NCBI GenBank assembly: GCA_023151185.1 | Contig: JAKLJL010000002.1 | Coordinates: 582,288 to 646,287, forward strand | DNA length: 64,000 nt | Source: Bacteroidota bacterium | Lineage (GTDB): Bacteria; Bacteroidota; JABWAT01 | Reading direction: 5' to 3' | Shown: positions 18,383 to 31,028 of the stretch, piece by piece | Layout: each line of letters starts with the position of its first letter | Numbering within the stretch: position 1 is the stretch's first letter | Notes under the pieces: generated by a model | The model's input: the letters and a program-made list of their open reading frames with translations, nothing else | Database searches by the model: none | What the model was told of the DNA's origin: nothing | Translations under genes and position numbers: made by a program

Positions 18383-19324
18383 TCAGATTTTTAAGGTGAA
18401 TTGAAGGGCAGGAACGGAATATCCGGTTCCTGTCGGCAGACTGTTCAAAGATAACTTAACCTGATCGGTATGTAAACGGGCCTGCATGGCAGCATTGACA
18501 GCCGACACAGTATGGTTTACCAGGGTCAGGACGGCAAAAGTACTGGCGAGATTATGCATTTCATTGGCCCTGGTCCGGCTGTCACGGTAAGACCGGAAGG
18601 CCGGTGTCAGAAACTGCATATGACTCATTGGAAGACTGTTGTCATAATCATACCAACCCGGCATGAACTGTTCATACTTCCCGATCAGTTCATAATACTG
18701 CTGGGAATCATAACCGGGCAGGACATGTGAGAATTTAGCTCCGCCACCAAATGTAAATGTCATCTCCCTCTCGAGTGAATTCAATTCAGTCCACCATTCC
18801 CTGTTCCCGGGTGTCATATTGGGGTCTCCGTTGATTTTGTTTTTCAGTGCTACAGCAAGATCTTTTGCTTTCTGATCCTGGCCACCTCCAGAATCCTCGG
18901 CCCAATATATAAGGTAATCGGCATATTTACGGACACTCCACCCTTTAGCAGGGTCGTTGGCAACCTTCTGGTATGCTTTTTCTTTATTTGCGGCATCTTT
19001 GTCGAAATACAGGTAACTGCCAACCAAAACAATCTCTGCAGTAAAAAAGCCGATTGCCGACTTATAGGCTTCTGCATACCACTCACCGGTACCGGGAATG
19101 ACCGCAGAAAAAAAAGCCGCCTTCAGCGGACTTTTCTTTTCATCACTGAAAAAAGCCCAGGCTGAGGGTTGGGAATCCGAAATCCCCAGTTGGCTGTCCA
19201 GAAGCAGATTTCCGTACAGGGGTTGCAGATTCTCACCAGTCCGAGGCTCTGAAAGCGGCTGACCGGATGAGGCAGAAAAGTAAAAAATAAAAACAGAAAA
19301 GGAGAGTAATTTTAAAAAGTCCAT
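18383..19324 (-). CDS. Secreted hypothetical protein
   Basis: 313 aa with a signal peptide and no recognisable motif. Confidence 0.35.
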   Translation of the reverse strand: MDFLKLLSFSVFIFYFSASSGQPLSEPRTGENLQPLYGNLLLDSQLGISDSQPSAWAFFSDEKKSPLKAAFFSAVIPGTGEWYAEAYKSAIGFFTAEIVLVGSYLYFDKDAANKEKAYQKVANDPAKGWSVRKYADYLIYWAEDSGGGQDQKAKDLAVALKNKINGDPNMTPGNREWWTELNSLEREMTFTFGGGAKFSHVLPGYDSQQYYELIGKYEQFMPGWYDYDNSLPMSHMQFLTPAFRSYRDSRTRANEMHNLASTFAVLTLVNHTVSAVNAAMQARLHTDQVKLSLNSLPTGTGYSVPALQFTLKI

Positions 19325-22300
19325 TTTTCGAGTCCAAGATCAAAGTTAAACAACATTCCGAAATGGTATTGCCATTCCTGCCCGTACCGGACGGAATTTT
19401 TCCCGTCCGGTGTTTCAAAACCCTTGGTCAGGGCTACATCAAACCGGTCGAAACCGTAGGTTCCGGAAAAGAATATCCGGATAGGCATCAGATAAAATGA
19501 AGTGGATTCCAGGCGAAGTTCAAAACCTGCATCCCGCCTGAAAGAGGAAAGTGCAGGCATTTTGGCATTCCAGGCTTGCCCGATGTCAGCAAAGACTGAT
19601 CCGTAAAGCCGGTCGAAATAAAACATCTTGAAACTTTTATCCAGTTTTCTGAATATCGGGAACCGGTAGCTGATTTGACCGTGTGCCATTTCAAATCCGC
19701 CGATTGAATAAAACGGATATCCCCGCATCCCGGAAAAACCACCAGCATAATTATAATAGAACGGTTCACCCTTCCCACCTGTAACCCCGGCCCGACGGAT
19801 CCAGAATGATAGCGTGTGGTTGAAAAAGGGTAGTCCGATATGTTCCTTGTACCCGATGGAATATTTAAAAATAGAAAACTTCTTATAATGGAAAGTGAGT
19901 GCTCCATTTTCTACTAAAACCGAATCTAAAAGTTCATTGGCCTCGGCACCGATAGACAGGCTTCCCTCACGGCCTACCGGATTGATACTGGATTCCTTGG
20001 CTGGCTGTAAGTGCTCGAATGAATAATTCAGCAGTGCGCCATGTCCGGTAAAGTAGGTATCTGTAGAGGAGGAAACTTTTGAAATCTCATCGTTCACCTT
20101 AAAGAAAAAGGTGGCAATTTTATTTGAATAAGAGGAGTAAATATACTTCAGTGACAAAAGACCTGCGGGATCGGTTTTTATCTGGGCTCCTGCTTCAACC
20201 TGATTCAGATTATAAATGACATTTGCCCGTGCCGAATCCTCTCCAACTCCGAAATTCACTGCATCTTCTGACTGACGGGAAATATTGAAATAATCAATTG
20301 TCCAGCGAACCGGAAGCAGGCTGCTGAAAATCCCGTCTGCCAGATTCAGGCCCAGAAAAACATCCCGGTCCCACTCAGTAAACTTCCCGTCACCGAATGG
20401 GTTGATCAGGGCACCGGCACTGAACTGAATCCAATCCAGCGGATCAGATGAAAAAGCATAAGTCCCGATTTTTAAATCCCGTGACAAATTGTGCCCCAGC
20501 TTATCCCAGTTTTTTTGGCGGATATTATCCAGATAGCTCCCATCTGATTTGATATAGCCATCAAGCCGAAGTACCGGGTAAAACGATATCGGGTTCTGTG
20601 TTCTCATCCGGTAGGCAAAAACAGGACCGTCAACCGGCTGTATATTGGCATGATTCAGCGGAATTTCCTCAATTCCCTCTGATTCGGGATGGTTAACAAA
20701 CGGATAGGTAACCCTGGGTTTTAAAATTTTGGCGGCCGCAGTAAATACTCTCGCCTTAAATCCGGCTCCGGTAAAAACTGACCCGGCAACCTGCGATCCG
20801 GAAAGGGGCACTCCCTGAAAAACACTTCCTCTTACCTGAGTAATCTGAGTTCTTTTCCCGGTTGTCAAGTCCAGGGTGTAAAGATTGAAAATTCCGGTTT
20901 CATCAGAAGTTATCAGTAATTTTTCAGGAGTAATCCACCGGGGTTCCCGGTTATCACGGCCGGTCCTGAGTAGTTTTTTCCAGGCTTTTGTTCCTGCAGA
21001 ATAAAGTTGAATTTCTCTTCCATGGATCTCGGTAAAATCTACAGCAAGCTGCCCGGATTCCCGTTGAAAATCAAGGGTATGAAATTCAGTTTCTTCATTT
21101 TCGGGCGTGAGGTCAGAGGTTACTGATAGCATTTCCCCGGGTTCCCAGCCTGAAAGTGAAAGACAAACCACCGATTTCAGTGCATTTCTATTGCTGATGG
21201 CATAAATCAGGGAATCCCCATCCCAAACCGGAGAAAAAAGGCGGGCATCCCGGGTTAACCGGATGGCCTCTTCCTTCTGAAAATCCCAGATCCATAAATC
21301 AGAATACCGGGATCCAAGATGATTCGGTGTGCCAGTTTGGCTGTACAGCAGGTAGTTCTTTCCATTCCGGTTGAAAAAACGGATTCTGGCATTGGCATGG
21401 ATTTCTTCAACACGGCCCGTTTCAGTACCGGTCGTATCCATCAGCAAAACCACCGTTTGACCGAAATAATCGGCTTTCTGGTTGGACCGGATAATCAACC
21501 TGCCGGTCGCAGGATCAAAATCATCCACCCAGTTAGAAAATCCGGTTTCGGATAGGATTCGGCCTTCATCAATTTCGGGCTGGATTGGGGCAATCTGAGT
21601 GGCATAATGCGATCTGAGTACAGAAACCCACTCAGAATAGATGACGTCTCCAGGTTTACCGAAGGCATCCTCGAGGGCATCCCCGATCGAAAAAACAGTT
21701 TTCTTTTTCAGGGACAGGTTCAGCCGGTCAACTGCATCAAGTCCATAAGTTTTGCTTAAGTAGGAAACCAGATTGAATCCCTGGTTATAAACCGTCTCAC
21801 CATCAAGGGAGGTTTTGTTGAAACTGACCATTTCGGACCAGGTCAGTAAGGTAGAATCCAGAGTTCTCGCCCGCAGAATCATATCCCGGTGAGCATCCCA
21901 ATAGTCATAGTGAAGCCCGGGAACGTTAAACTGGGCAGTTCCTTCTGCCAGCCAGGCCGGAACCACAATGTTCAGGAACGGAAAAGAAACCAGCCGGTTC
22001 GGATATCCGTAGAGATAATCCGGCCGCCTGACATCTTCATATCCAAAATACTGAAAATAAAAAGCGGGGATCCGTTTCGACCATTTCATCGCCGACTGAA
22101 TCTGAACGATATGGGTAAATTCATGCGAAATGACATCCTCGAGCCATTTATGGTTGCCTCTGAGCGGGAAGTCGAGGGCCGTGGCATAGATTTCAATTTT
22201 ATCATCAAAAAAATAGGCAGCCCCGTTCGAGTAATCGTCGGTATCCTTCAGAATCAGGGTTTGTCTGGCCGGAAAATAATTATAAACCTTGCAGACCGGC

Positions 22301-22503
22301 AGATATACCGAATCGTATACGGCTGCCATTCTTCTCGCCATTTTTTCCATGGGCTCATGATACAAAACAGTTGCATATTTTGATTCCAAAGATTTCCAGG
22401 AGAGGTTTTTATACCCCATCGGGAAAAAAGGCTGGGCAAAAGAAGATCCTGCTGCCATTCCGCATAGAAGAATGACAGCAAAAAGAAAACGGGATCGGAT
22501 CAT
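19312..22503 (-). CDS. Multidomain outer-membrane protein: peptidase-MA-like (HExxH) domain + PD40/TolB-like propeller region + Omp85-type C-terminal beta-barrel
   Basis: 1063 aa. Signal peptide. HEFTH at aa 127-131, followed by WLAEGTAQF (an EGxA third-ligand-like motif). Mid-region repeats resemble PD40. The C-terminus MRGYPFYSIGG...SYRFPIF...FADIGQAW...FELRL...IRIFFSGTYGF...KWTF matches the BamA/Omp85 barrel signature, with a terminal Phe. Confidence 0.5.
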   Translation of the reverse strand: MIRSRFLFAVILLCGMAAGSSFAQPFFPMGYKNLSWKSLESKYATVLYHEPMEKMARRMAAVYDSVYLPVCKVYNYFPARQTLILKDTDDYSNGAAYFFDDKIEIYATALDFPLRGNHKWLEDVISHEFTHIVQIQSAMKWSKRIPAFYFQYFGYEDVRRPDYLYGYPNRLVSFPFLNIVVPAWLAEGTAQFNVPGLHYDYWDAHRDMILRARTLDSTLLTWSEMVSFNKTSLDGETVYNQGFNLVSYLSKTYGLDAVDRLNLSLKKKTVFSIGDALEDAFGKPGDVIYSEWVSVLRSHYATQIAPIQPEIDEGRILSETGFSNWVDDFDPATGRLIIRSNQKADYFGQTVVLLMDTTGTETGRVEEIHANARIRFFNRNGKNYLLYSQTGTPNHLGSRYSDLWIWDFQKEEAIRLTRDARLFSPVWDGDSLIYAISNRNALKSVVCLSLSGWEPGEMLSVTSDLTPENEETEFHTLDFQRESGQLAVDFTEIHGREIQLYSAGTKAWKKLLRTGRDNREPRWITPEKLLITSDETGIFNLYTLDLTTGKRTQITQVRGSVFQGVPLSGSQVAGSVFTGAGFKARVFTAAAKILKPRVTYPFVNHPESEGIEEIPLNHANIQPVDGPVFAYRMRTQNPISFYPVLRLDGYIKSDGSYLDNIRQKNWDKLGHNLSRDLKIGTYAFSSDPLDWIQFSAGALINPFGDGKFTEWDRDVFLGLNLADGIFSSLLPVRWTIDYFNISRQSEDAVNFGVGEDSARANVIYNLNQVEAGAQIKTDPAGLLSLKYIYSSYSNKIATFFFKVNDEISKVSSSTDTYFTGHGALLNYSFEHLQPAKESSINPVGREGSLSIGAEANELLDSVLVENGALTFHYKKFSIFKYSIGYKEHIGLPFFNHTLSFWIRRAGVTGGKGEPFYYNYAGGFSGMRGYPFYSIGGFEMAHGQISYRFPIFRKLDKSFKMFYFDRLYGSVFADIGQAWNAKMPALSSFRRDAGFELRLESTSFYLMPIRIFFSGTYGFDRFDVALTKGFETPDGKNSVRYGQEWQYHFGMLFNFDLGLEKWTF

Positions 22504-22508
22504 GGGTG

Positions 22509-25500
22509 TTACCGGATTAAAACGACTTTTAGAATTTTTGTGAGTGATTTGCCTTCACCCGAAAGGTCAACTGAAGCGAAGTACATCCCCGACTGGGCAG
22601 AACCCGAATTCCAGGTAATTTCAGTTTCAGTATTTTTTTGGACGGAAACTGACAGGTCAGTTACTTTCTGTCCGCCTAAATCGAGAAGTGTAATTTTACC
22701 CGTCCCGGTAAAAGGTACCAATATCCTGAAATGAACAAGTCCGTCTTTACTCGGATTTGGCCAGGAGTAAACCGTTTCTTCGTTTTCAGGCGTTTGGCTG
22801 ACCCAGGATTTCCGGCTGACTGAAGATTTCCCGGCAACCCGTAACGCCTCACCCGGGTTTTGGTCGGTGCCCTGGAAAAATCCGTTTAACAGAACAAGAT
22901 CAACCGAAAGTGAATCAGCCAGAAGCTGGGCAGAAACTACCCGGCCGTTAGCAGAAACCAGTCCGGAGGGATTGATTCCGGCAGATAACGGTGTTTTATT
23001 CGGGTACCCGTGAACCGGTGTTGTATACCAGGTTTGCCCGGATTTTAAAACCAAAACCAGATTTCCGGCAGATTCCAGCATTTGAATCCCGGTGATCTTT
23101 TGGGACATTTCCACCGGAAAACCTTCAAGCTGAAGGTTTCCATAATACCCGGAAACGGATAATGAATCAGAAGAAATGAAGAACTGGTACCGGTCTTCAG
23201 GCCCATTTAAAATCAGATTCCGGTTGGTGGATCCGGTTTTTTCATTAACCAGTTCCAAACTGCCGGGTGCAGAATACCCAACCAAAAATGTTTTGAACTG
23301 ACCATTTTGGGTTTGAATAACAACCTGATTATCCTCCGAAGAGGCAGTCACTGACCGGTAAGGTTCAGAATGCGGCAAAACACCCTCTGCCGACCCCAAT
23401 GACAGCGTCAGTTTATTTCCAAGGATTGAGAACCACTGCCCGTTTTGCTGGAAAAAAATCCGGTCAGTAAATCCTGAAGGATCTGAAAGCTGGCTGTGCG
23501 GGATCAGTTGACCGTCTTTCAACCGGGCAATAAACCAGTTATTATCCGTTTTGCTTTGAACCGGCAGGTAAAAAGAGCCTGAACTGAAAACCAAACTTCC
23601 GCTTAACCTCCAGTCGTCAGAATTCCGGCCGGGCAGAACAGGAATAGTGTAGAGAGCATCTGAGATTTGTCCGTTTAAAAGCTGAATAACCCGGATTCCA
23701 GCCGGGAACTGGGGAATTGCAATAAAAAGGGTGTCTCCTGAAGAAGCCGGGTTTGAAAACCCGGAAACCCATTCTTTTGCAGAAATTGGCCAGGTTCCGG
23801 CTGCTGCTGATCCCTGATAAAGGGAAACAGTCTCCGCATGAACTGCCACTGTCCAGATAGAATCCTGGTGGTAAAAGGATCTGATTTTACCAGTTACTTT
23901 TTCAGGAAGACTCAACAGCTTCCGGGAAATCAGAACCGGATTTGCCGGTGCAGAATAATTGAAAGAAATCTGAATCCCCGTCCCTGCCCGGATAAACCCT
24001 TTTACCTGAATGCCCGTCTGGGCTTGCTTTTCCCAATTTGAAGAAGGAACCGATTCAGCCGAAAATTCACCTTTATAAAGAGGTGAAATATTTCCATCCG
24101 TCCAGTAGTCGAAAATAGTCCCGGCTTCAGATCCGCTGCCCCCGGTAAAGGAACCATAAACCTGGCCGATATCCTGACTTCCGTCAGCCTCCAGAAGAGT
24201 CAGAACACGGGTTTCTTCTTTCGAATTTAATTTTGAAAATTCCCCGGGTGTCATCCCGGAATAAAGGTTTCCGTCATTTATCTTCCAGATCAGCATACCG
24301 CCACGGATCGTATCTTCCTTTTCGTTTATCCCTGCTGGAATAACCCACCAGGGATTGGAAATATCGGTGATAATTCCCTTCAGCAGAGACTGGTCGTACT
24401 CGTAAAATCCGTTAATATCCTTCGAAACCGGGAGGGTTTTTGCTTCCCCCCGGTCAAAATAGGAAATCGTGGTCCCATTTTCTTCCAGATTGGGATTCCG
24501 GTGAAGAGTTTCCAGTAAAAAGTACTTTTTATCGCCAAGATGAATAAAAAAGGGCTGTCCCGGGTTGATTGTTTTCAATTCAGGAAGCGCCGAAATATCC
24601 TTAACTTCGGGGGTAATCCACCCCAGTTGATATTGCTCCCAGGCATTTGGCGGGCTTGGAAAAAAACCGTTGAAATTGAAAATTCCATATCCGTCCATCA
24701 GTCCGAACCGGCCGGTCACCGATGCTCCGGTAGAGGTATTATATAAATCAGGCAACCCAAGAAAATTGCCGAAATTTGCAGTCATAATCCCGTTAATCCC
24801 AAAGGAAATCAGAACCTTTTTCCCGTAACTTTCAACCACCCGGGAAAGCGTTTCAGGAAGGATGGACAGGTTGGATAGTGTTATTCCCGGATAAATTTCA
24901 GCCGGTGAGAACGGAATGGCAGAAGATGGGCTCAGGTAAATAGAAGAGATATCTGCTGGAGTCGGGTCTCCGCCCAGAATTGATCCCCAGTTGATGTCTT
25001 TCCCCATTCCGGCGTGAAAAAGAATAAAATGGGTTTTCTTTTCACCGGAATAAAATGGCCGGATTTCATCCGCAAGCTCTGGTTTAGCAGCAGCCGCGGC
25101 AAGGAAATCTGAAACCAGCCTGGAATAGCCTTCAGCTGCAGTTTGCTTGTAGGCTGAATAGGTTCTCATTTTGCCGGGCAGAACCAGGATTTCTGAAGCA
25201 ACATGCAATTGGGAAAGACTGATTTTTCCGCCGGAAACCCGTTCCCAGTAAGATTTTAGAAATTCAAGGTGCTTTGAAAAATAGGTTTTCTCTCTGGGAT
25301 AGGAATCCAGAAATCCGGTATCAGGTGCGGTAGTTACAAACCGGCCTGTTCCCTCTGTAAAGGGATCCGAATCCTTCCCGTCAACCAGTTCATCCTGAAA
25401 TTCAACCTGAAAGGCAATAACGGAATACTCACCGGAAACAGGAGTTGGGTTCAGCCTGACCGGAAGCTGGGCTGAAACCAGCGAAGAGCAAAACAAAAAC

Positions 25501-25532
25501 AGATAAAAAAAGCTCGGTCTGGCTTTATACAT
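22509..25532 (-). CDS. T9SS CTD cargo protein with M6 (InhA-like) metallopeptidase-like N-terminal domain
   Basis: 1007 aa. Signal peptide. The VIAFQVEFQDE N-terminal strand is typical of M6-domain proteins. The position homologous to HExxHxxGxPDxY reads TANFGNFLGLPDLY (aa 251-264). The C-terminal CTD is YSWPNPSKDGLVHFRILV...ILKVVLIR. Confidence 0.55.
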   Translation of the reverse strand: MYKARPSFFYLFLFCSSLVSAQLPVRLNPTPVSGEYSVIAFQVEFQDELVDGKDSDPFTEGTGRFVTTAPDTGFLDSYPREKTYFSKHLEFLKSYWERVSGGKISLSQLHVASEILVLPGKMRTYSAYKQTAAEGYSRLVSDFLAAAAAKPELADEIRPFYSGEKKTHFILFHAGMGKDINWGSILGGDPTPADISSIYLSPSSAIPFSPAEIYPGITLSNLSILPETLSRVVESYGKKVLISFGINGIMTANFGNFLGLPDLYNTSTGASVTGRFGLMDGYGIFNFNGFFPSPPNAWEQYQLGWITPEVKDISALPELKTINPGQPFFIHLGDKKYFLLETLHRNPNLEENGTTISYFDRGEAKTLPVSKDINGFYEYDQSLLKGIITDISNPWWVIPAGINEKEDTIRGGMLIWKINDGNLYSGMTPGEFSKLNSKEETRVLTLLEADGSQDIGQVYGSFTGGSGSEAGTIFDYWTDGNISPLYKGEFSAESVPSSNWEKQAQTGIQVKGFIRAGTGIQISFNYSAPANPVLISRKLLSLPEKVTGKIRSFYHQDSIWTVAVHAETVSLYQGSAAAGTWPISAKEWVSGFSNPASSGDTLFIAIPQFPAGIRVIQLLNGQISDALYTIPVLPGRNSDDWRLSGSLVFSSGSFYLPVQSKTDNNWFIARLKDGQLIPHSQLSDPSGFTDRIFFQQNGQWFSILGNKLTLSLGSAEGVLPHSEPYRSVTASSEDNQVVIQTQNGQFKTFLVGYSAPGSLELVNEKTGSTNRNLILNGPEDRYQFFISSDSLSVSGYYGNLQLEGFPVEMSQKITGIQMLESAGNLVLVLKSGQTWYTTPVHGYPNKTPLSAGINPSGLVSANGRVVSAQLLADSLSVDLVLLNGFFQGTDQNPGEALRVAGKSSVSRKSWVSQTPENEETVYSWPNPSKDGLVHFRILVPFTGTGKITLLDLGGQKVTDLSVSVQKNTETEITWNSGSAQSGMYFASVDLSGEGKSLTKILKVVLIR

Positions 25533-25545
25533 AATTTAAACCGGT

Positions 25546-26697
25546 TTACTCTAAAATATTTGAAAGATTCATTCCCAGGGTAACCCGAACTGTACCTGCC
25601 AGCGGATGAGATTCTTCGAAGGTTGAAATATAACTGAAGTCCACATTCAGGAAGGAATAGAGAATTCCCGCACCATAAGTCATGAATTTCCGGTTACCGG
25701 CCCGGCGGTCTTCGTAGAAAAATCCTGCCCTGAGAGATACGTATTCATCATAGACAAATTCACCGCCCAGCATCAGGTTTGCTTTGTTCAGTTCATTGAC
25801 AACTCCATCCTGGTACCAGGCCTTATAGATGGCCTGGTAAACCGGATACTTATGATCCTTGTCTTTGTTGGATACCAATAATTTTGCCATTTCAATATAG
25901 GTATCCAGATAATAGTATTCGTCATTGATCAGCCGGTATGCAAACCCAGTTCTGAATTTTGTAGGAAGCGGATCGGCCTGTGCCTCGTCAATATAAGTCA
26001 TTGAAGGACCGATATTGGTGATACTTGTGCCCCAGCGGAACCGGTCTGAAAGGTCGGCAACTTCATACCAGCTAAAAACTGAAGAATCATCACTGGTTAA
26101 CACTGACGGGACAGGGATTCCAAGCGAAAAACGGGTAGGATGATACTCAAAGGCAAGGTCAATCCCAAAGCCGCTTGCGATTCCCCGACCCTCTTCCTGA
26201 GCAGTACCGAACGGGCTTAACCGTGAATAAATAAACCGGCCACCAGTCCCGATACTCCAACTGTCAGAGACCGGTACACCATAAGAAACTCCAACCGCCA
26301 TTTCCCAGCTTAAAAACCGACCGAGTTCCTGTCCGGTCTGATCTGTCCTTACATTTTCCCCTAAATTTAAAAAGGTAATATGTGCGCCCAGGGACCCCAG
26401 TTCTTCATCCAGCGGGTAAACAAATGCCAGATAATCATAAAACAAATCTCCGGTTAGCTGAGGTAACCAGTTGGAGTGAGTGATACTGACTTTCATTTCC
26501 TGAATGCGGTAAAGTGCTGCCGGATTCCAGAAAACGGTGTTCGGATCCTTACCGGCCATCGCAACACCCCCTTCTCCGAAACCGCTTGACCGGCTGTCTG
26601 GGGCAATTTGCAGGAATGGGACCGCTGTTGTGGTAACCTGTGAAAAAACGGCTGTTGACCAAAGGAAAAAAACGAATAAGGTCAGTTTGGCTTTCAT
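25546..26697 (-). CDS. porV: T9SS outer-membrane protein PorV (LptO)-like, FadL-family beta-barrel
   Basis: 383 aa. Signal peptide. N-terminus VPFLQIAPDSRSSGFGEGGVA...NPAAL fits the PorV/PorQ family pattern. It lies immediately downstream of porU, the conserved porU-porV arrangement. Confidence 0.55.
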   Translation of the reverse strand: MKAKLTLFVFFLWSTAVFSQVTTTAVPFLQIAPDSRSSGFGEGGVAMAGKDPNTVFWNPAALYRIQEMKVSITHSNWLPQLTGDLFYDYLAFVYPLDEELGSLGAHITFLNLGENVRTDQTGQELGRFLSWEMAVGVSYGVPVSDSWSIGTGGRFIYSRLSPFGTAQEEGRGIASGFGIDLAFEYHPTRFSLGIPVPSVLTSDDSSVFSWYEVADLSDRFRWGTSITNIGPSMTYIDEAQADPLPTKFRTGFAYRLINDEYYYLDTYIEMAKLLVSNKDKDHKYPVYQAIYKAWYQDGVVNELNKANLMLGGEFVYDEYVSLRAGFFYEDRRAGNRKFMTYGAGILYSFLNVDFSYISTFEESHPLAGTVRVTLGMNLSNILE

Positions 26698-26730: not shown

Positions 26731-29700
26731 TTAGTTATACTTCATTAATTTTATGATTTCGGTTTTTGTTTTCCCGGATCCGGTTTCTTTAAGGACCAGT
26801 CGGGCCAGATAAATGCCATTTGCAACAGGATCTCCGTCAGAATCCAGCCCATCCCAAACCAGCAGGCCCCCGTTGTTTGTTTCCGTTGGGTGCTGTTTAA
26901 GTGTTCGGATGAGAAGACCGTTAAGTGTATAAATTGACGCTGTTATCTGAACTTTTGCATCGGGTAAATTTTGGTTGTAAAAAAAACGTACCGTTTTCCC
27001 GAACGGGTTTGGATAGGGATACAGGTTGCTGACTGAAAAATCAGTTCCTTCTGTTACAACAAAGCGGATTGTAGATTCTGCACCATTGTTGAAAGAATCC
27101 CAAACCTTTAGTTTGAATTCGTGGGGACCTGCTGAAACTGTACTCAGCGGATACTCAATGGTTCCGGTTGTAAAGTCGTTCAGATTGGCTGTAAAATAAG
27201 GACTCATGTCAATGGCACCCGTAAGATCATTATCGAGAATACCTAAAAGCTGGTGGCCTATCCCAAGCCCGGTAGTATTAATACCGGATGAATCAGAAAT
27301 GACAGCCTTCAGAAAACCGGAATTTGCAACCCGCTGACCATCAGAAAAAGAGGAATCATTGATAAAAAGGGAAACCGAAGGCGGTAAGGTATCGGTAAGA
27401 GCTCCGGTACCACCTGATATGTACTGGATCCGGGGAGAGAGAATTAATCCGGCATCTTTTTCGTTCCATAAAAACCCGGAAACTCTGGCTGGAGACCGGC
27501 TTGGCGTTACGTCGGATGGAACCATAAATTTCATTGAAAACTGACCATCCGAAACAGAAACAAGACCCTTAAAGATATCTGATCCTTCATTTTGATATTC
27601 GGTCACATCTGTCCCTGGTTTTGAAACCCATTCCGGAACCGTAACCGTTACCGGTTCTCCTGCTAGCCGGATTAAGGCAGACCCGGAAAACTGGTCTGCG
27701 TTCCCAGCGGGAAGTTCCGAGAGTCTTCCAGAAAGTCTGCCAACAGACTGAATCTGAAATTGAATCAGGCTATCCTGGGTGAGTTCAGCTTCCTTATTCA
27801 GAAGGCGGCCTCTGCCTTCAGGAATCAGAAGGCGGGTGGCTGGGTCTGCAAGCAGGGAAAATTTATTCACATTTTCATCTGTGTAGAATTTTCCGGTTTT
27901 AACATCAAGTTCAGAAAAATGCTGCTTGGTCAGAGTATAAACTTCGCCAAGTGATAAATTTTTCCCGGTATCATTCTTTTTAAACAGGTTTGAAAACAAA
28001 TAATAATTCAGCGCAAGATTATAAGGACCGTCCAGTCTTCTGTCTGTATAAACGAGCCGCGTGGTGGTAAACATTCCGATTACACCGGTTTCTTTTTGTG
28101 TCACCAGAAGTTCTGCGGCACTTTGCTCATCAGGATCATCATATTTTCCGAAATCACAGGTAGCGGTGATCAGAAACGGAAGTTTTGAGGAATTGGTTAG
28201 TCTCGGAAGGAAGGCTCCGATTTCCAGAATCCGTTCATGAGTCCAGACTTTTGTGTTTCCATGCCCGGAGTAATTAATAACTACACTGCCGGAATTAAAA
28301 TAATTGATCAGGGAATTTGCAGCTTCTGGTTTTCTTCTTCCTTCACTGGTTGTAATGGTCGGGAACGAAACGGAATATAATTTTCTGACCGAAAGGTAGG
28401 GTGGTATGAGTGTAGAAACGACTTCTGCATTGTAGGTGTGCAGATCGTAATCATCACCGCTGGAAGTCAGACCATCATCTGCAACCATGGTGACTTTCAT
28501 CCGCCAGTCCCCTTTTTCTGAATTGAGATCATAGTTGATGAGCTTATCAACCATCTGATCTGCCTCTGCAACCGTTACAACCGGAAGCCGGCCGATACCA
28601 ACCCGGAATTGGCCATCAGAGGTTACCCGGCTGAAATCATCATCCGAGCAAAACGTAGAACGCTGAAGTAAGGATTCCTGACTTTCAAATGTAGGAATTA
28701 GTCCCGGAAAAGATTTCTTTCCGCCAATTTCTTTGAAATCATAGGATGCATCCCCCAGCAGAAGCACATTTTTCAGCACTCCTGACCCTGCAGAATAAAC
28801 CTGCCCGATGAATTTCCGAATAGCCTCCGGATTTGCCTTTCCCCCTGAAAAATGAGTATAGATATCTTCGGTGGTTACAACGGCCCCGTTCCAGTTTTGG
28901 GCAACCCGGTGAGCCAGAAGCCGTTTTGCAGGTAAGGTAAACTGCGGAGGAGTAATTATCACGTAATCAATCCCGGCAGCAAACGCATCCGGAACAGTAG
29001 AGACCCCCAAGCGTTCCCAGCTTAATGATCCGGCGGAAATAACACCGTCTGTTTTGTGTACTGCAAAGAAACGGTTTGCTTTTTCCGGACTCAAAATAGA
29101 CCCGAAACGGATATCACCACCAGAAATTGAAGTCTGGGATACAACTTTGGGAGAAAGCGGATTGTCAAGATTAAACACCAAAATACCAGAATCCCGAAAA
29201 CCGCCTATCCTGAAATTCACCGGGCCACCGGATGAAGGTTGAAAAAAATCGATTTCAGTTTTGGAGGCTAAAAGGGACCTGCTGTACTGCAGGGTGAACC
29301 AATCCAGCCACCCGGTAGCAGTACCATTGCTGACCAGGGCAATTTCAATCGAGGCCCTGTCCTGATTGAGTTTTGAAATCTGTCCGGAAACCGTTCGCTC
29401 ACGGGCAACCTTGTCTTCATAATTAGCCGGATTTGAATAGCCGGTGATAATATCCTTAACAACATACTGGCCGGATTCCAGTATAGATAGTCTTGCAAGA
29501 GATGTCGAAGGGTATTGCGCAAGAACGGAGCCCCTGAACAGTACCGGTGATCCGGTTACATAATCAGGAAGTTTCTGAGTCCAGATCTGGGTGCTGTTTG
29601 CCGAAATTCTGGGTCCGACCCAAAGGGTTCCCGATTTCAGCAGATTCTCAGATTCCGGATTCTCCCACACCATAAACTGAGCTGTACCGGTTTCGGAAAC

Positions 29701-30543
29701 CCCTTCGATGAGAGTCCCTGGAACACTTTCCATTCTTTTTCCGGGCGAAGTCCCAAATCCCAGAAATAAATACTGGTTTTCAGAGTAAATATCATCATAC
29801 CAGGAAAATGCCCGGGAAGTAGAATCAAAATATATTCCCTGCTGAATATCAGAATAGAAATACCAGACCTGAGAGTCACTCCAAACATCCGGTTCGGTAG
29901 TTTCAGAAAACAGGGGAATTTCGACTGTTCCAGGTCCTGACGGCCGGGGGCCTGAACTCGAAAATACCCTTAGATTTTTTGGATTTTCTGTCTTTGAAAA
30001 TCCAAATGAGATCAGATCTGAGGCTGTAAGTTTAAAAATACCGGAGCGCAGCGGTTTCAACCTGACCCAAAGCCCGCTTTCAAACAGAGATTCGGCTGCT
30101 GTTGTTTTCTGAAATGCAATCCTTGAAGATTCCGGCTGCCTTTTCCCGGTGCCGGAAAGAGTAAATTTTGTACAAATAAGAACATCGTTTCCGGAAAACA
30201 CACCAATTTGGCGCCGTTTCCAGAATCGGAAATCAGGCTCGGAAGTGACGGTAACTGCCTGTGGTCTGGTACCGGGATCCGAAATTGAAAAAGAAACAAA
30301 GGACCCCCTTTCGGGAATGACTTCATCAGACGGATCAGACTCAGATCCCACGTAAATAATTTCACCGGAAGGGGAAACCATCAGCCGGGGATTTGACAAT
30401 GTCCAGACAGACTTGTCTCCTGCATCTCTTAGCTTGAAAAGTTTTGGAAGGTCCGGACGGATATCTGCATACCTGAAGTTTTGGGCTGTAAGAAGCCCGG
30501 AAGGCACCAAAAAAAGCAGCAAATAAAACAGGGTTTTAAGCAT
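26731..30543 (-). CDS. porU: T9SS C-terminal signal peptidase/sortase PorU (C25 gingipain-like cysteine peptidase) with its own CTD
   Basis: About 1270 aa from the Met at 30543 (signal peptide MLKTLFYLLLFLVPSGLLTAQ). The ORF track extends to 30699. C25 catalytic His in NYSGHGN and Cys in ITATCDFG. The C-terminal CTD is YPYPNPFGKTVRFFYNQ...IIKLMKYN. Confidence 0.7.
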   Translation of the reverse strand: MLKTLFYLLLFLVPSGLLTAQNFRYADIRPDLPKLFKLRDAGDKSVWTLSNPRLMVSPSGEIIYVGSESDPSDEVIPERGSFVSFSISDPGTRPQAVTVTSEPDFRFWKRRQIGVFSGNDVLICTKFTLSGTGKRQPESSRIAFQKTTAAESLFESGLWVRLKPLRSGIFKLTASDLISFGFSKTENPKNLRVFSSSGPRPSGPGTVEIPLFSETTEPDVWSDSQVWYFYSDIQQGIYFDSTSRAFSWYDDIYSENQYLFLGFGTSPGKRMESVPGTLIEGVSETGTAQFMVWENPESENLLKSGTLWVGPRISANSTQIWTQKLPDYVTGSPVLFRGSVLAQYPSTSLARLSILESGQYVVKDIITGYSNPANYEDKVARERTVSGQISKLNQDRASIEIALVSNGTATGWLDWFTLQYSRSLLASKTEIDFFQPSSGGPVNFRIGGFRDSGILVFNLDNPLSPKVVSQTSISGGDIRFGSILSPEKANRFFAVHKTDGVISAGSLSWERLGVSTVPDAFAAGIDYVIITPPQFTLPAKRLLAHRVAQNWNGAVVTTEDIYTHFSGGKANPEAIRKFIGQVYSAGSGVLKNVLLLGDASYDFKEIGGKKSFPGLIPTFESQESLLQRSTFCSDDDFSRVTSDGQFRVGIGRLPVVTVAEADQMVDKLINYDLNSEKGDWRMKVTMVADDGLTSSGDDYDLHTYNAEVVSTLIPPYLSVRKLYSVSFPTITTSEGRRKPEAANSLINYFNSGSVVINYSGHGNTKVWTHERILEIGAFLPRLTNSSKLPFLITATCDFGKYDDPDEQSAAELLVTQKETGVIGMFTTTRLVYTDRRLDGPYNLALNYYLFSNLFKKNDTGKNLSLGEVYTLTKQHFSELDVKTGKFYTDENVNKFSLLADPATRLLIPEGRGRLLNKEAELTQDSLIQFQIQSVGRLSGRLSELPAGNADQFSGSALIRLAGEPVTVTVPEWVSKPGTDVTEYQNEGSDIFKGLVSVSDGQFSMKFMVPSDVTPSRSPARVSGFLWNEKDAGLILSPRIQYISGGTGALTDTLPPSVSLFINDSSFSDGQRVANSGFLKAVISDSSGINTTGLGIGHQLLGILDNDLTGAIDMSPYFTANLNDFTTGTIEYPLSTVSAGPHEFKLKVWDSFNNGAESTIRFVVTEGTDFSVSNLYPYPNPFGKTVRFFYNQNLPDAKVQITASIYTLNGLLIRTLKQHPTETNNGGLLVWDGLDSDGDPVANGIYLARLVLKETGSGKTKTEIIKLMKYN

Positions 30544-30683
30544 AAAAATTAGGGCTGAATGATGAACTTTAGGTTCAAAATAATCAAAAAATATTACTTC
30601 TTTAGCATTCGGCCGATATGCAGTTTCCCTGTTTTGAATTGGTTCTAAGAAAGTTACGATTCCGGCGAAAGAAAAACAACCTG

Positions 30684-31028
30684 TCAGCCCGGAGGCCACA
30701 AAAATTTGCGCTTTCCAAGGAAATGGGCATGAAGATGAAAAACGGTTTGCCCGGCATCTTCATTGGCATTAAGAACAACCCGGTAGCCGGAATCAGAAAT
30801 TCCGAGTTCTTTGGCAATCCTGGCACCGGTCGCCAGGAGAGACCCGACCAGTTCCGGGTCAGATTCTGCAGCATCAGTTAAATTCCTGAAATGGATTTTA
30901 GGGATGACCAGAAAATGAACTGGCGCCTGAGGGTTAATGTCATTGAAGGCCAGTACAGAATCATCCTCATATACAGGATTTACCGGTATTTCTCCAGAAA
31001 CAAACTTACAAAAAAGACAGTCTGTCAT
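30684..31028 (-). CDS. HIT-family (histidine triad) nucleotide hydrolase/transferase
   Basis: 114 aa. HLHAH histidine-triad motif near the C-terminus, with typical Hint-like length and order. Confidence 0.8.
   Translation of the reverse strand: MTDCLFCKFVSGEIPVNPVYEDDSVLAFNDINPQAPVHFLVIPKIHFRNLTDAAESDPELVGSLLATGARIAKELGISDSGYRVVLNANEDAGQTVFHLHAHFLGKRKFLWPPG

What the first reader, a model, noticed from the sequence alone, without database searches (positions are those of the whole stretch)
19312..22503. Unusual three-part architecture: HExxH peptidase-MA-like domain + PD40 propeller + Omp85-type beta-barrel in a single 1063-aa protein
The N-terminus carries HEFTH (nt 22111-22125) followed by WLAEGTAQF, a gluzincin or peptidase-MA-like HExxH...EGxA arrangement. 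The middle has TolB/PD40-like repeats. The C-terminal 150 aa match the BamA/Omp85 barrel signature (MRGYPF...SYRFPIF...FADIGQAW...ELRL...IRIFFSGTYGF...KWTF). Canonical Omp85 proteins carry POTRA domains, not a protease and propeller. An Omp85 barrel that tethers a periplasmic or surface metalloprotease would be a previously uncharacterised combination. Its location next to porU/porV suggests a role in surface-protein processing.
Basis: seen in the sequence. Interest (0 to 1): 0.7.

Follow-up and report, generated by a model that had tools for sequence, protein, structure and literature searches.

The report
Protease-propeller-Omp85 barrel fusion beside porU/porV
The gene encodes an outer-membrane Omp85-type barrel fused to an apparently active zinc protease and a TolB-like propeller; the architecture was listed in a 2014 survey but never studied, and here it sits in a conserved operon with type IX secretion genes.

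Summary

The novelty claim is overstated. Heinz & Lithgow (2014) defined a "WD40-Omp85" subfamily, and their Table S3 records BamA, TolB and peptidase-like hits for its members. The family is large: about 3,100 cluster representatives at 50% identity and more than 578 species genomes. Its function has never been tested.

I found no report of the gene context. porU-porV-(M6-like inactive metalloprotease with a T9SS sorting domain)-target-(DUF5683-like) is co-directional and tightly spaced in 58-70 of 60-71 evaluable Ignavibacteria-type loci. A PorV-family barrel, an M6-like protein and the target homolog also recur together in Fibrobacterota. Other clades instead place the gene after an Opp-type ABC transporter.

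Best reading (inferred): an outer-membrane-anchored, periplasm-facing peptidase that works with the T9SS PorV module.

The parts
19312..22503 (-). Whole ORF, 1063 aa: signal peptide + gluzincin peptidase + six-bladed propeller + Omp85 barrel
   Evidence: ORF list and translation; full-length homologs; AF2 model pLDDT 84.4, pTM 0.83
22435..22503 (-). Sec-type signal peptide, residues 1-23 (MIRSRFLFAVILLCGMAAGSSFA|Q)
   Evidence: Read from the sequence: basic n-region, hydrophobic core, SFA-Q cleavage-like site. Low pLDDT for residues 15-30. No predictor was run.
21568..22413 (-). Gluzincin (clan MA, Peptidase_MA_2-like) metallopeptidase domain, residues 31-312
22111..22125 (-). HEFTH zinc-binding/catalytic motif, residues 127-131, on helix 120-137
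   Evidence: H127, E128 and H131 are present in 52/52 homologs. It is the only H[ED]xxH in the protein.
21928..21954 (-). WLAEGTAQF, residues 184-192: candidate third zinc ligand Glu187 on the next helix (183-192)
   Evidence: W184, A186, E187, G188, A190 and Q191 are present in 52/52 homologs. Helix assignment. The ligand role is inferred from the gluzincin pattern.
20734..21567 (-). Six-bladed TolB/PD40-type beta-propeller, residues 313-590 (24 strands = 6 blades x 4)
20587..20733 (-). Linker, residues 591-639, mostly coil
   Evidence: DSSP of the model
19315..20586 (-). Omp85-type beta-barrel, residues about 640-1052, plus a short C-terminal tail
19711..19731 (-). GMRGYPF, residues 925-931: counterpart of the Omp85 L6 (V/I)RG(F/Y) motif, between strands 11 and 12
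   Evidence: G925 52/52, K/R927 52/52, G928 48/52, Y929 52/52. Position from DSSP. The motif is described for BamA in PMC12611786.
19579..19593 (-). FADIG, residues 971-975: counterpart of the Omp85 strand-13 (F/G)xDxG motif
   Evidence: F/Y971 50/52, D973 51/52, G975 52/52. It lies on the second strand after L6. Naming the motif rests on my knowledge of FhaC/BamA.
22509..25532 (-). Upstream operon partner: 1007-aa M6-like inactivated metalloprotease with a T9SS type A sorting domain
   Evidence: NF052323 414.8 bits (cut-off 600), Por_Secre_tail 26.1 bits (cut-off 23). No HExxH. Present in 70/71 evaluable loci. Homolog adjacent in Fibrobacterota.
25546..26697 (-). porV (PorV/PorQ-family outer-membrane barrel)
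   Evidence: Pfam PorV 2.6e-30. NF033709 276.7 bits. Present in 64/65 evaluable loci.
26731..30699 (-). porU (T9SS sortase, peptidase C25)
   Evidence: Peptidase_C25 5e-82. NF033707 755.9 bits, cut-off 420. Present in 58/60 evaluable loci.
18383..19324 (-). Downstream operon partner: 313-aa DUF5683-like membrane protein; its start overlaps the target stop by 13 nt
   Evidence: DUF5683 25.2 bits, cut-off 26.7. Coordinates. Present in 63/68 evaluable loci, median gap 9 nt.

Best explanation
The protein is a member of the WD40-Omp85 subfamily. A 16-stranded Omp85 barrel anchors in the outer membrane. To its N-terminus are tethered a catalytically intact gluzincin zinc peptidase and a six-bladed TolB-like propeller.

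Shown here:
- the three folds;
- the invariant HExxH...E site;
- the conserved Omp85 L6 and strand-13 motifs;
- the conserved operon with porU, porV and a T9SS-sorted M6-like pseudo-protease.

Inferred:
- Topology: as in other Omp85 proteins, including PlpD, the N-terminal domains hang in the periplasm under the barrel.
- Role of the propeller: it acts as a binding or gating platform for unfolded polypeptide, as in TolB-box binding and in propeller-gated peptidases such as tricorn and the S9 family, and it feeds the peptidase.
- Function in this lineage: the enzyme sits next to PorV-family complexes and cleaves or clears polypeptides on the periplasmic side of the T9SS attachment/shuttle module. 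Substrates could be stalled or unexported CTD-bearing cargo, or peptide products.
- Function in other phyla: the same enzyme is coupled to an Opp-type peptide importer.
For: Folds:
- Foldseek hits BamA barrels at E about 1e-8.

Active site and barrel motifs:
- H127, E128, H131 and E187 are present in 52/52 homologs.
- (K/R)GY is in 52/52 and (F/Y)xDxG in 50-52/52.

Operon:
- All five genes are co-directional, with median gaps of 9-74 nt.
- The M6-like gene is present in 70/71 evaluable loci, PorV in 64/65, PorU in 58/60 and the DUF5683-like gene in 63/68, at about 33% target identity.
- A PorV-family barrel, an M6-like protein and the target homolog are also adjacent in three Fibrobacterota loci. 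tblastn gives E about 1e-30 for PorV and 1e-15 to 1e-19 for the M6-like protein; NCBIfam gives NF033709 187 bits and NF052323 329.6 bits.
- In 4 of 7 loci examined from a distant clade, the gene directly follows Opp-type permease and ATPase genes. This fits a real peptide-handling enzyme.

Topology precedent: the N-terminal domain of the Omp85 protein PlpD is exclusively periplasmic (PMC11116518).
Against: - No experiment bears on activity, topology, partners or substrate.
- The model coordinates could not be inspected. The zinc-site geometry, the domain packing and the side of the membrane are therefore unverified.
- The T9SS neighbourhood is clade-specific. It is absent from 7 of 7 loci examined in a distant clade labelled Latescibacteria/Gemmatimonadota and from one Ignavibacterium locus, L075.
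- Known T9SS CTD cleavage by PorU happens on the cell surface, where a periplasmic enzyme could not reach it.
- The window protein itself fails the Pfam gathering thresholds for all three domains.
Confidence: 0.45

Rival explanations
1. Specialised BAM-like assembly module. The Omp85 barrel is catalytic rather than a passive anchor. It helps insert or assemble the PorV-family barrel together with its surface-bound CTD protein (PorU, or the M6-like protein). The propeller plays a BamB-like scaffold role and the peptidase a BepA-like quality-control role.
For: - The L6 (K/R)GY and strand-13 (F/Y)xDxG motifs, which are conserved in Omp85 proteins such as BamA, are conserved here.
- Heinz & Lithgow proposed a BamA-BamB-fusion-like role for this subfamily.
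- In Bacteroidota BAM, the BamA barrel pairs with a FadL-like barrel (BamG) that anchors a surface protein canopy (PMC12611786). This resembles an Omp85 barrel plus a PorV-family barrel plus a surface M6-like protein.
Against: - No POTRA domain is detectable by sequence: 0/40 homologs in Pfam, and there are no POTRA entries for this subfamily in Table S3.
- PlpD keeps the same Omp85 motifs without a known insertase role.
- The same family occurs with Opp-type transporters and no T9SS genes in other phyla.
- The BepA match covers only 105 residues, which is the generic zincin core.
Confidence: 0.2
2. General nutritional peptidase. The protein is an outer-membrane-anchored periplasmic oligopeptidase that trims peptides for uptake. 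The peptides may be generated by T9SS-secreted proteases. Its place in the porU/porV operon reflects co-regulation rather than physical or mechanistic coupling to the secretion machinery.
For: - The active site is invariant.
- The fold resembles M1 aminopeptidases and other peptide-degrading gluzincins.
- It lies next to Opp-type ABC importer genes in 4 of 7 loci examined from another clade.
- The family is very broad: about 3,141 representatives at E<=1e-30.
Against: - Co-regulation alone seldom preserves gene order and tight spacing across about 33% identity and two phyla.
- The conserved partner is specifically a PorV-family barrel plus an inactive M6-like protein, not secreted hydrolases.
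- A nutritional peptidase has no obvious need for an Omp85 barrel with conserved L6 and strand-13 motifs.
Confidence: 0.2
3. Surface-exposed protease. The barrel exports or displays the peptidase and propeller on the cell surface in a type V-like manner. There the enzyme processes T9SS cargo alongside the PorU sortase.
For: - It sits in an operon with porU and porV, whose known chemistry happens at the cell surface.
- PlpD was long assumed to work this way.
Against: - PlpD's N-terminal domain was shown to be exclusively periplasmic (PMC11116518).
- Omp85 N-termini emerge on the periplasmic side. This rests on established knowledge of BamA, TamA and FhaC structures.
- A folded 280-residue propeller and a 280-residue peptidase are unlikely passengers for a 16-strand barrel whose lumen holds L6.
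- The target has no T9SS CTD.
Confidence: 0.1
4. Non-catalytic scaffold. The HExxH domain is a pseudo-enzyme, like its M6-like neighbour. The protein only tethers partners (peptidoglycan, Pal-like lipoproteins or PorV complexes) through the propeller.
For: - The neighbouring M6-like protein has lost its HExxH.
- TolB propellers are binding modules.
Against: HExxH, Glu187 and further motifs (WDxHRDMI, Y239-N240) are invariant across 52 sequences at 34-66% identity. HExxH, the PxW(F/L)xEGxAQ motif and WD(S/T)xRDM(I/V/L/F) also persist in more distant members, as seen by inspecting the sequences. That conservation pattern is typical of an active site under selection.
Confidence: 0.05

Closest known systems
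WD40-Omp85 ('WD40-like') subfamily of the Omp85/TpsB superfamily (Heinz & Lithgow 2014, PMC4104836)
   Same: - It has an N-terminal TolB-like PD40 propeller plus a C-terminal BamA/TamA-like barrel without a detectable POTRA.
- Table S3 of that paper also lists a peptidase-like hit per member: M1 aminopeptidases 1z5h, 4kxd, 3qnf and 4fgm, or collagenase 4ar1.
- The list includes accessions whose prefixes match Ignavibacterium album and Melioribacter roseus entries in the same table (I0AKC8; I7A1M2, I6YZ00, I6Z7G7).
   Different: - That paper discussed only the propeller (a BamA-BamB-like fusion). It did not discuss the peptidase domain in the text, gave no gene context and reported no experiments.
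- Direct sequence clustering of the window protein with the listed accessions could not be run here.
PlpD (patatin-like Omp85, Pseudomonas aeruginosa; PMC11116518)
   Same: An Omp85 barrel carries a non-POTRA N-terminal enzyme domain. That enzyme domain was shown to be periplasmic. It shows that the Omp85 scaffold has been reused to anchor enzymes.
   Different: PlpD has a lipase (patatin) domain plus one POTRA and forms homodimers. It has no propeller, no metallopeptidase and no T9SS link.
BamA with BepA (E. coli), and the Bacteroidota BAM complex BamA-BamG-BamH (PMC12611786)
   Same: - The barrel fold and the L6 RGY motif match BamA.
- BepA is a periplasmic zinc metallopeptidase that works at an Omp85 barrel.
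- BamG is a FadL-like barrel bound to BamA that anchors a surface protein. This parallels the conserved neighbours here, a PorV-family barrel and the surface M6-like protein.
   Different: - Here the protease and barrel are one polypeptide.
- There are no five POTRA domains.
- BepA is an M48 peptidase with TPR repeats, not a Peptidase_MA_2 domain with a propeller.
- A separate canonical POTRA+Omp85 gene exists in the same window at 40571-42820.
T9SS attachment complex PorU-PorV-PorZ-PorQ (Porphyromonas gingivalis)
   Same: It shares an operon with bona fide porU and porV. The neighbouring M6-like protein carries a T9SS sorting domain, as PorU and PorZ do.
   Different: - The target has no CTD and no PorV/PorQ-type barrel.
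- No Omp85-family protein with a peptidase is among the described T9SS components in the papers retrieved.
Propeller-gated peptidases (tricorn protease, S9 prolyl oligopeptidase/DPP-IV) and TolB
   Same: - The PD40/Tricorn_N-type six-bladed propeller sits next to a peptidase domain.
- The propeller is the closest structural match to TolB.
   Different: - The catalytic domain is a zinc gluzincin, not a serine peptidase.
- The TolB N-terminal TolA-binding domain is absent: the NCBIfam TolB score is 16.7 against a cut-off of 343.
- The database name 'biopolymer transporter Tol' is therefore a misnomer.

Membership tests
Omp85/TpsB superfamily | Membrane-embedded 16-stranded Omp85-type beta-barrel | tested here: met
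Omp85/TpsB superfamily | L6 loop (V/I)RG(F/Y) motif between strands 11 and 12 | tested here: met
   G925-M-(K/R)927-G-Y929. K/R and Y are present in 52/52 homologs. The motif lies between strands 897-909 and 938-951.
Omp85/TpsB superfamily | Strand-13 (F/G)xDxG motif | tested here: met
   F971-A-D973-I-G975. D is present in 51/52 and G in 52/52 homologs. The motif lies on the second strand after L6.
Omp85/TpsB superfamily | [quoted passage not shown] | tested here: inconclusive
   No Pfam POTRA hit in 40 homologs, and none is recorded for this subfamily in Table S3. The model has a beta-alpha-alpha-beta-beta element at 640-700 that could be barrel strands 1-3 or a vestigial POTRA. Heinz & Lithgow define the superfamily by the barrel alone.
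Omp85/TpsB superfamily | Pfam PF01103 match above the gathering score | tested here: not met
   The window protein has no PF01103 hit at E<=1. 8 of 40 homologs match, best E 4.3e-8. Membership therefore rests on structure and motifs.
WD40-Omp85 subfamily (Heinz & Lithgow 2014) | TolB-like PD40 propeller N-terminal to the Omp85 barrel, with a peptidase-like region at the N-terminus | tested here: met
   The domain order peptidase 31-312, propeller 313-590, barrel 640-1052 matches the Table S3 pattern of BamA/TamA + TolB + peptidase hits.
WD40-Omp85 subfamily (Heinz & Lithgow 2014) | Sequence clustering with the listed member accessions (for example I0AKC8, I7A1M2, H1XQ58) | not testable with these tools
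   UniProt sequences cannot be fetched here. The inference rests on full-length homologs at 31-36% identity in Ignavibacterium and Melioribacter genomes and on accession prefixes shared with _IGNAJ and _MELRP entries in the same table.
Gluzincin metallopeptidases (clan MA(E); Pfam Peptidase_MA_2) | HExxH on one helix, plus a Glu third zinc ligand on a following helix | tested here: met
   H127-E-x-x-H131 on helix 120-137 and E187 on helix 183-192 are all present in 52/52 homologs.
Gluzincin metallopeptidases (clan MA(E); Pfam Peptidase_MA_2) | Thermolysin-like (zincin) catalytic fold | tested here: met
Gluzincin metallopeptidases (clan MA(E); Pfam Peptidase_MA_2) | Pfam PF13485 gathering score | tested here: not met
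   22.7 bits against a cut-off of 32.4 for the window protein. 40/40 homologs match at E<=0.01, best 2.5e-13.
M1 aminopeptidases | GxMEN exopeptidase motif and HExxH-x18-E spacing | tested here: not met
   The strand about 35 residues upstream of HExxH reads S92-N-G-A-A96 and has no Glu. The spacing from HExxH to E187 is 55 residues, with a beta-hairpin insert at 147-177. This was read from the sequence, not from a structural superposition. The domain works like a gluzincin but is not an M1 member.
TolB (Tol-Pal system) | N-terminal TolA-binding alpha/beta domain plus a six-bladed propeller; equivalog score | tested here: not met
   Only the propeller aligns: 240 of 397 TolB residues. The NCBIfam TolB score is 16.7 against a cut-off of 343.
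T9SS accessory/attachment components | Conserved genomic linkage with core attachment genes porU and porV | tested here: met
   PorV is present in 64/65 and PorU in 58/60 evaluable loci. All genes are co-directional with short gaps. A PorV-family barrel, an M6-like protein and the target homolog are adjacent in Fibrobacterota. The linkage is absent in another clade.
T9SS accessory/attachment components | Requirement for secretion or attachment of CTD cargo, or physical presence in the complex | not testable with these tools
   This needs genetics or biochemistry in a cultured carrier.

The most novel reading that the evidence does not exclude
The fusion protein is a previously unrecognised structural component of the type IX secretion attachment/shuttle module in non-Bacteroidia FCB lineages (Ignavibacteria-type Bacteroidota, Kryptonia, Fibrobacterota). 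In this reading an Omp85 barrel pairs in the membrane with a PorV-family barrel, and that PorV-family barrel holds an inactive M6-like protein on the surface. The arrangement would be analogous to BamA-BamG-BamH. The periplasmic propeller-peptidase would then clear or process CTD-bearing polypeptides from below, which would give the T9SS a dedicated periplasmic protease.
Probability: 0.3. Interest if true: 0.75.

Novelty: new member of a known kind. Interest (0 to 1): 0.55.

Why it matters
The Omp85 superfamily is best understood through BamA, TamA and TpsB. The enzyme-bearing subfamilies were still called uncharacterised in 2024. This family is large, with thousands of sequence clusters, and keeps an intact zinc-peptidase site, so it probably represents a widespread but unstudied way of anchoring a protease at the outer membrane.

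The conserved operon with porU, porV and a T9SS-sorted pseudo-protease gives a concrete, testable hypothesis for its role. It also points to a possible missing accessory of type IX secretion outside the well-studied Bacteroidia. Cultured carriers probably exist (Ignavibacterium album, Melioribacter roseus, Chitinispirillum alkaliphilum), so the hypothesis can be tested directly.

The work also shows that the common database name 'biopolymer transporter Tol / TolB precursor' is wrong for these proteins.

Tried and rejected
- Single-sequence Pfam, NCBIfam and PDB searches of the window protein gave only sub-threshold hits. Profiles and structure prediction were needed.
- A family profile searched against PDB sequences found only propellers, with no peptidase or barrel.
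- BLASTP of the target barrel against the canonical POTRA+Omp85 protein in the same window found nothing. The relationship is visible only through structure and motifs.
- The afdb50 fold library was unavailable, so no AlphaFold-database architecture census could be made.
- Literature searches for an Omp85/peptidase/T9SS link, for PorU2/PorV2/M6-like proteins and for Ignavibacteria T9SS returned nothing relevant beyond Heinz & Lithgow and the PlpD and BAM papers. The Fibrobacter proteomics paper does not mention the family.
- TolB identity was rejected: there is no N-terminal TolB domain and the equivalog score is far below the cut-off.
- M1 aminopeptidase membership was rejected: there is no GxMEN motif and the ligand spacing is wrong.
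- A universal T9SS role was rejected for the whole family, because distant clades have other contexts.
- The pseudo-enzyme idea was considered unlikely because the active site is invariant.

Full report
OBSERVATION

The minus-strand ORF at 19312-22503 is real and encodes 1063 aa. HEFTH is residues 127-131 (nt 22111-22125). WLAEGTAQF is 184-192. MRGYPF is 926-931. FADIGQAW is 971-978. ELRL is 995-998. The protein ends in KWTF.

The N-terminus reads as a Sec signal peptide (MIRSRFLFAVILLCGMAAGSSFA|Q). This was judged by inspection only.

Alone, the sequence gives only weak family hits. Peptidase_MA_2 scores 22.7 bits against a cut-off of 32.4. There are faint flagellinolysin, TolB and BamA hits, and TolB in the PDB at E about 0.4.

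HOMOLOGS AND DOMAINS

A database search returned at least 1,796 relatives. The best 120 cover 96-100% of the query and are about 1,015-1,150 aa long. They are mostly named 'biopolymer transporter Tol', 'PD40 domain-containing protein' or 'hypothetical'.

In an alignment of 52 homologs (34-66% identity), H127, E128, H131 and E187 are invariant. So is a further N-domain motif, W202-D-x-H-R-D-M-I209, and so is Y239-N240. In the C-terminal domain G925, Y929, G975, W978 and R997 are invariant.

Scanning 40 members against Pfam gave Peptidase_MA_2 in 40/40, PD40 in 35/40 and Omp85 in 8/40, with a best E of 4.3e-8.

STRUCTURE

An AlphaFold2 model built from the alignment is confident (mean pLDDT 84.4, pTM 0.83).

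Foldseek gave BamA barrels at E about 1e-8 with target-normalised TM 0.52-0.60. It found no solved chain that combines the domains.

The DSSP string shows 24 strands between 315 and 588. That is six four-stranded blades.

It also shows 16 long strands between 640 and 1052. The strands near both ends of that range are short (9-10 residues) and those in the middle are long (20-23 residues). GM(R/K)GY lies between strands 11 and 12, which is the position of the BamA L6 VRGF/Y motif (described in PMC12611786). (F/Y)xDxG lies on strand 13.

Details that differ from named families:
- The spacing from HExxH to the Glu ligand is 55 residues, with a beta-hairpin insert. M1 has 18.
- The strand that corresponds by position to the M1 GxMEN motif reads SNGAA.
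- The TolB N-terminal domain is absent.
- No POTRA is detectable by sequence.

One element is ambiguous. Residues 640-700 form a beta-alpha-alpha-beta-beta unit. It could be the first three barrel strands with a helical loop, or a vestigial POTRA. Its strands are needed to reach 11 strands before L6, and they have alternating hydrophobicity. I could not inspect coordinates to settle this.

IS IT NEW?

No, not as an architecture. Heinz & Lithgow (2014, PMC4104836) divided the Omp85/TpsB superfamily into ten subfamilies. One is 'WD40-Omp85', described as a TolB-like propeller fused to an Omp85 barrel and likened to a BamA-BamB fusion.

Their supplementary Table S3 lists three Phyre2 hits for each WD40-like member:
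- a BamA or TamA barrel hit (4k3b or 4c00);
- a TolB hit (2w8b or 2ivz);
- a 'best aminopeptidase hit' (1z5h, 4kxd, 3qnf or 4fgm, or collagenase 4ar1).

The list includes I0AKC8 and I7A1M2, I6YZ00 and I6Z7G7. Their accession prefixes match entries labelled _IGNAJ and _MELRP elsewhere in the same table. That these are Ignavibacterium album and Melioribacter roseus proteins is my inference.

Hanson et al. (2024, PMC11116518) still describe the WD40-like subfamily as not well characterised.

The family is large. A profile search of 1.84 billion cluster representatives found 3,141 at E<=1e-30, many of them 1,000-1,250 aa and matched end to end.

GENE CONTEXT

This appears to be the new part. In the window the gene sits in a tightly packed minus-strand array:
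- porU (26731-30699; NF033707 755.9 bits).
- porV (25546-26697).
- A 1007-aa protein with a T9SS type A sorting domain (22509-25532). It matches NF052323 'T9SS-dependent M6-like inactivated metalloprotease' at 414.8 bits, below the 600 cut-off, and has no HExxH.
- The target.
- A DUF5683-like membrane protein (18383-19324), whose start overlaps the target's stop by 13 nt.

I examined the 80 best genome loci. They are labelled mainly Ignavibacteria, Ignavibacteriales, Melioribacteraceae, Kryptonia or generic 'Bacteroidota'/Bacteroidetes MAGs, plus a few other labels. Target identity is 31-36% in 79 of them and 66% in one.

Among loci with enough flanking DNA, the neighbours are present as follows:
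- M6-like gene: 70/71.
- porV: 64/65.
- porU: 58/60.
- DUF5683-like gene: 63/68.

All are co-directional, with median gaps of 9-74 nt. Only one evaluable locus, L075, lacks all four neighbours.

Starting from distant family members, I then looked at other clades.

In three Fibrobacterota (Chitinispirillales) loci the homolog is preceded by two genes. The first is an ~800-aa protein whose C-terminal half is a PorV/PorQ-family barrel (NF033709 187 bits; tblastn with the window's PorV gives E about 1e-30). The second is a ~1,240-aa M6-like inactivated metalloprotease (NF052323 329.6 bits; tblastn E 1e-15 to 1e-19).

In a clade labelled Latescibacteria/Gemmatimonadota or unlabelled, none of the 7 loci examined has T9SS neighbours. 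Four of them place the gene directly after an Opp-type ABC cluster: OppB- and OppC-like permease genes (both present in L090; only one of the two is annotated in L082 and L087, and none in L083), five unknown genes, and two oligo_HPY ATPases.

MECHANISM

Shown here:
- an outer-membrane Omp85 barrel with its hallmark motifs;
- an apparently intact gluzincin site;
- a TolB-like propeller;
- a conserved operon partnership with a PorV-family barrel and a T9SS-sorted M6-like pseudo-protease, in two phyla.

Inferred:
- Omp85 N-termini emerge on the periplasmic side, and the one tested non-POTRA enzyme fusion, PlpD, is exclusively periplasmic. The peptidase and propeller therefore most likely face the periplasm.
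- The propeller probably binds or gates unfolded polypeptide for the peptidase, by analogy with TolB-box binding and with tricorn and S9 peptidases.
- The enzyme probably acts beside PorV complexes on the periplasmic side of the T9SS attachment/shuttle module. In other phyla the same enzyme is instead coupled to peptide import.

I give this reading 0.45.

Rivals:
- A BAM-like assembly module for PorV-family complexes (0.2). It is encouraged by the BamA-BamG-BamH precedent in Bacteroidota and by the idea Heinz & Lithgow put forward themselves.
- A general nutritional oligopeptidase that is merely co-regulated with T9SS (0.2).
- A non-catalytic scaffold (0.05).

VERDICT

The claim of an unknown combination is not correct, because the subfamily was catalogued in 2014. 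Its function remains unknown.

The cross-phylum linkage to PorV and an M6-like pseudo-protease is not described in any paper I could retrieve. That linkage makes the family's function directly testable. I rate interest as moderate at 0.55 and classify the protein as a new member of a known but uncharacterised kind.

Noticed in passing
window 40571-42820 (-): A canonical 749-aa POTRA + Omp85 protein (Omp85 7.6e-24, POTRA 2.1e-07) lies in the same window. It may be BamA or TamL-like. It shows no BLASTP similarity to the target's barrel.
   Followed up: partly
window 22509-25532 (-): A 1007-aa protein with a T9SS type A sorting domain matches NCBIfam NF052323 'T9SS-dependent M6-like inactivated metalloprotease' (414.8 bits, below the 600 cut-off). 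It has no HExxH. It is the most constant neighbour of the target (70/71 loci) and is also adjacent in Fibrobacterota. It could be a PorZ-like surface partner.
   Followed up: partly
window 18383-19324 (-): A 313-aa DUF5683-like protein has an N-terminal signal-like segment and one strong hydrophobic stretch near residue 89-107. Its start overlaps the target stop by 13 nt, which suggests translational coupling. It is present in 63/68 evaluable loci but not in the Fibrobacterota loci.
   Followed up: partly
L082 1161-8978, L083 2366-8952, L087 1-8916, L090 1-8895: In a distant clade the homolog directly follows a conserved cluster. The cluster has OppB/OppC-like permeases, five genes with no or obscure Pfam hits (DUF6754, faint RnfC_N) and two oligo_HPY ABC ATPases. 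UbiA and/or DUF362 genes often follow the homolog. This unusual Opp-like cluster was not analysed further.
   Followed up: no
L084 2828-5227 (also L085 2654-5047, L086 2553-4970): Fibrobacterota encode an ~800-aa fusion. Its N-terminal region has faint propeller (Reg_prop) hits and a weak PorZ-like match (41 bits). Its C-terminal region is a PorV/PorQ-family barrel (187 bits). This may be a single-chain PorZ/PorQ-like unit.
   Followed up: partly
window 20404-20586 (target residues 640-700): A beta-alpha-alpha-beta-beta element sits at the N-terminal edge of the barrel. It has the strand-helix order of a POTRA domain but strands of transmembrane length. Whether it is barrel strands 1-3 or a POTRA remnant is unresolved.
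   Followed up: partly
L075 9992-13102: This is the only Ignavibacteria-type locus with full flanks in which the homolog lacks porU, porV, the M6-like gene and the DUF5683-like gene. It sits instead next to a divergently oriented 2192-aa ORF. It may be a rearrangement or a paralog.
   Followed up: no
window 26731-30699 (-): PorU here is 1322 aa. The NCBIfam PorU sortase model aligns only from residue 206, so there is an N-terminal extension of about 200 aa of unknown nature.
   Followed up: no
window 803-30699 (-): Nearly all genes from porU down to a PepQ-like M24 peptidase are on the minus strand in one long array. They include a DUF92 membrane protein, a 918-aa TPR protein, a SPOR-domain protein and a polysaccharide flippase-like protein. 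Beyond the five-gene core, this order is shared only with the closest relative, L001.
   Followed up: partly
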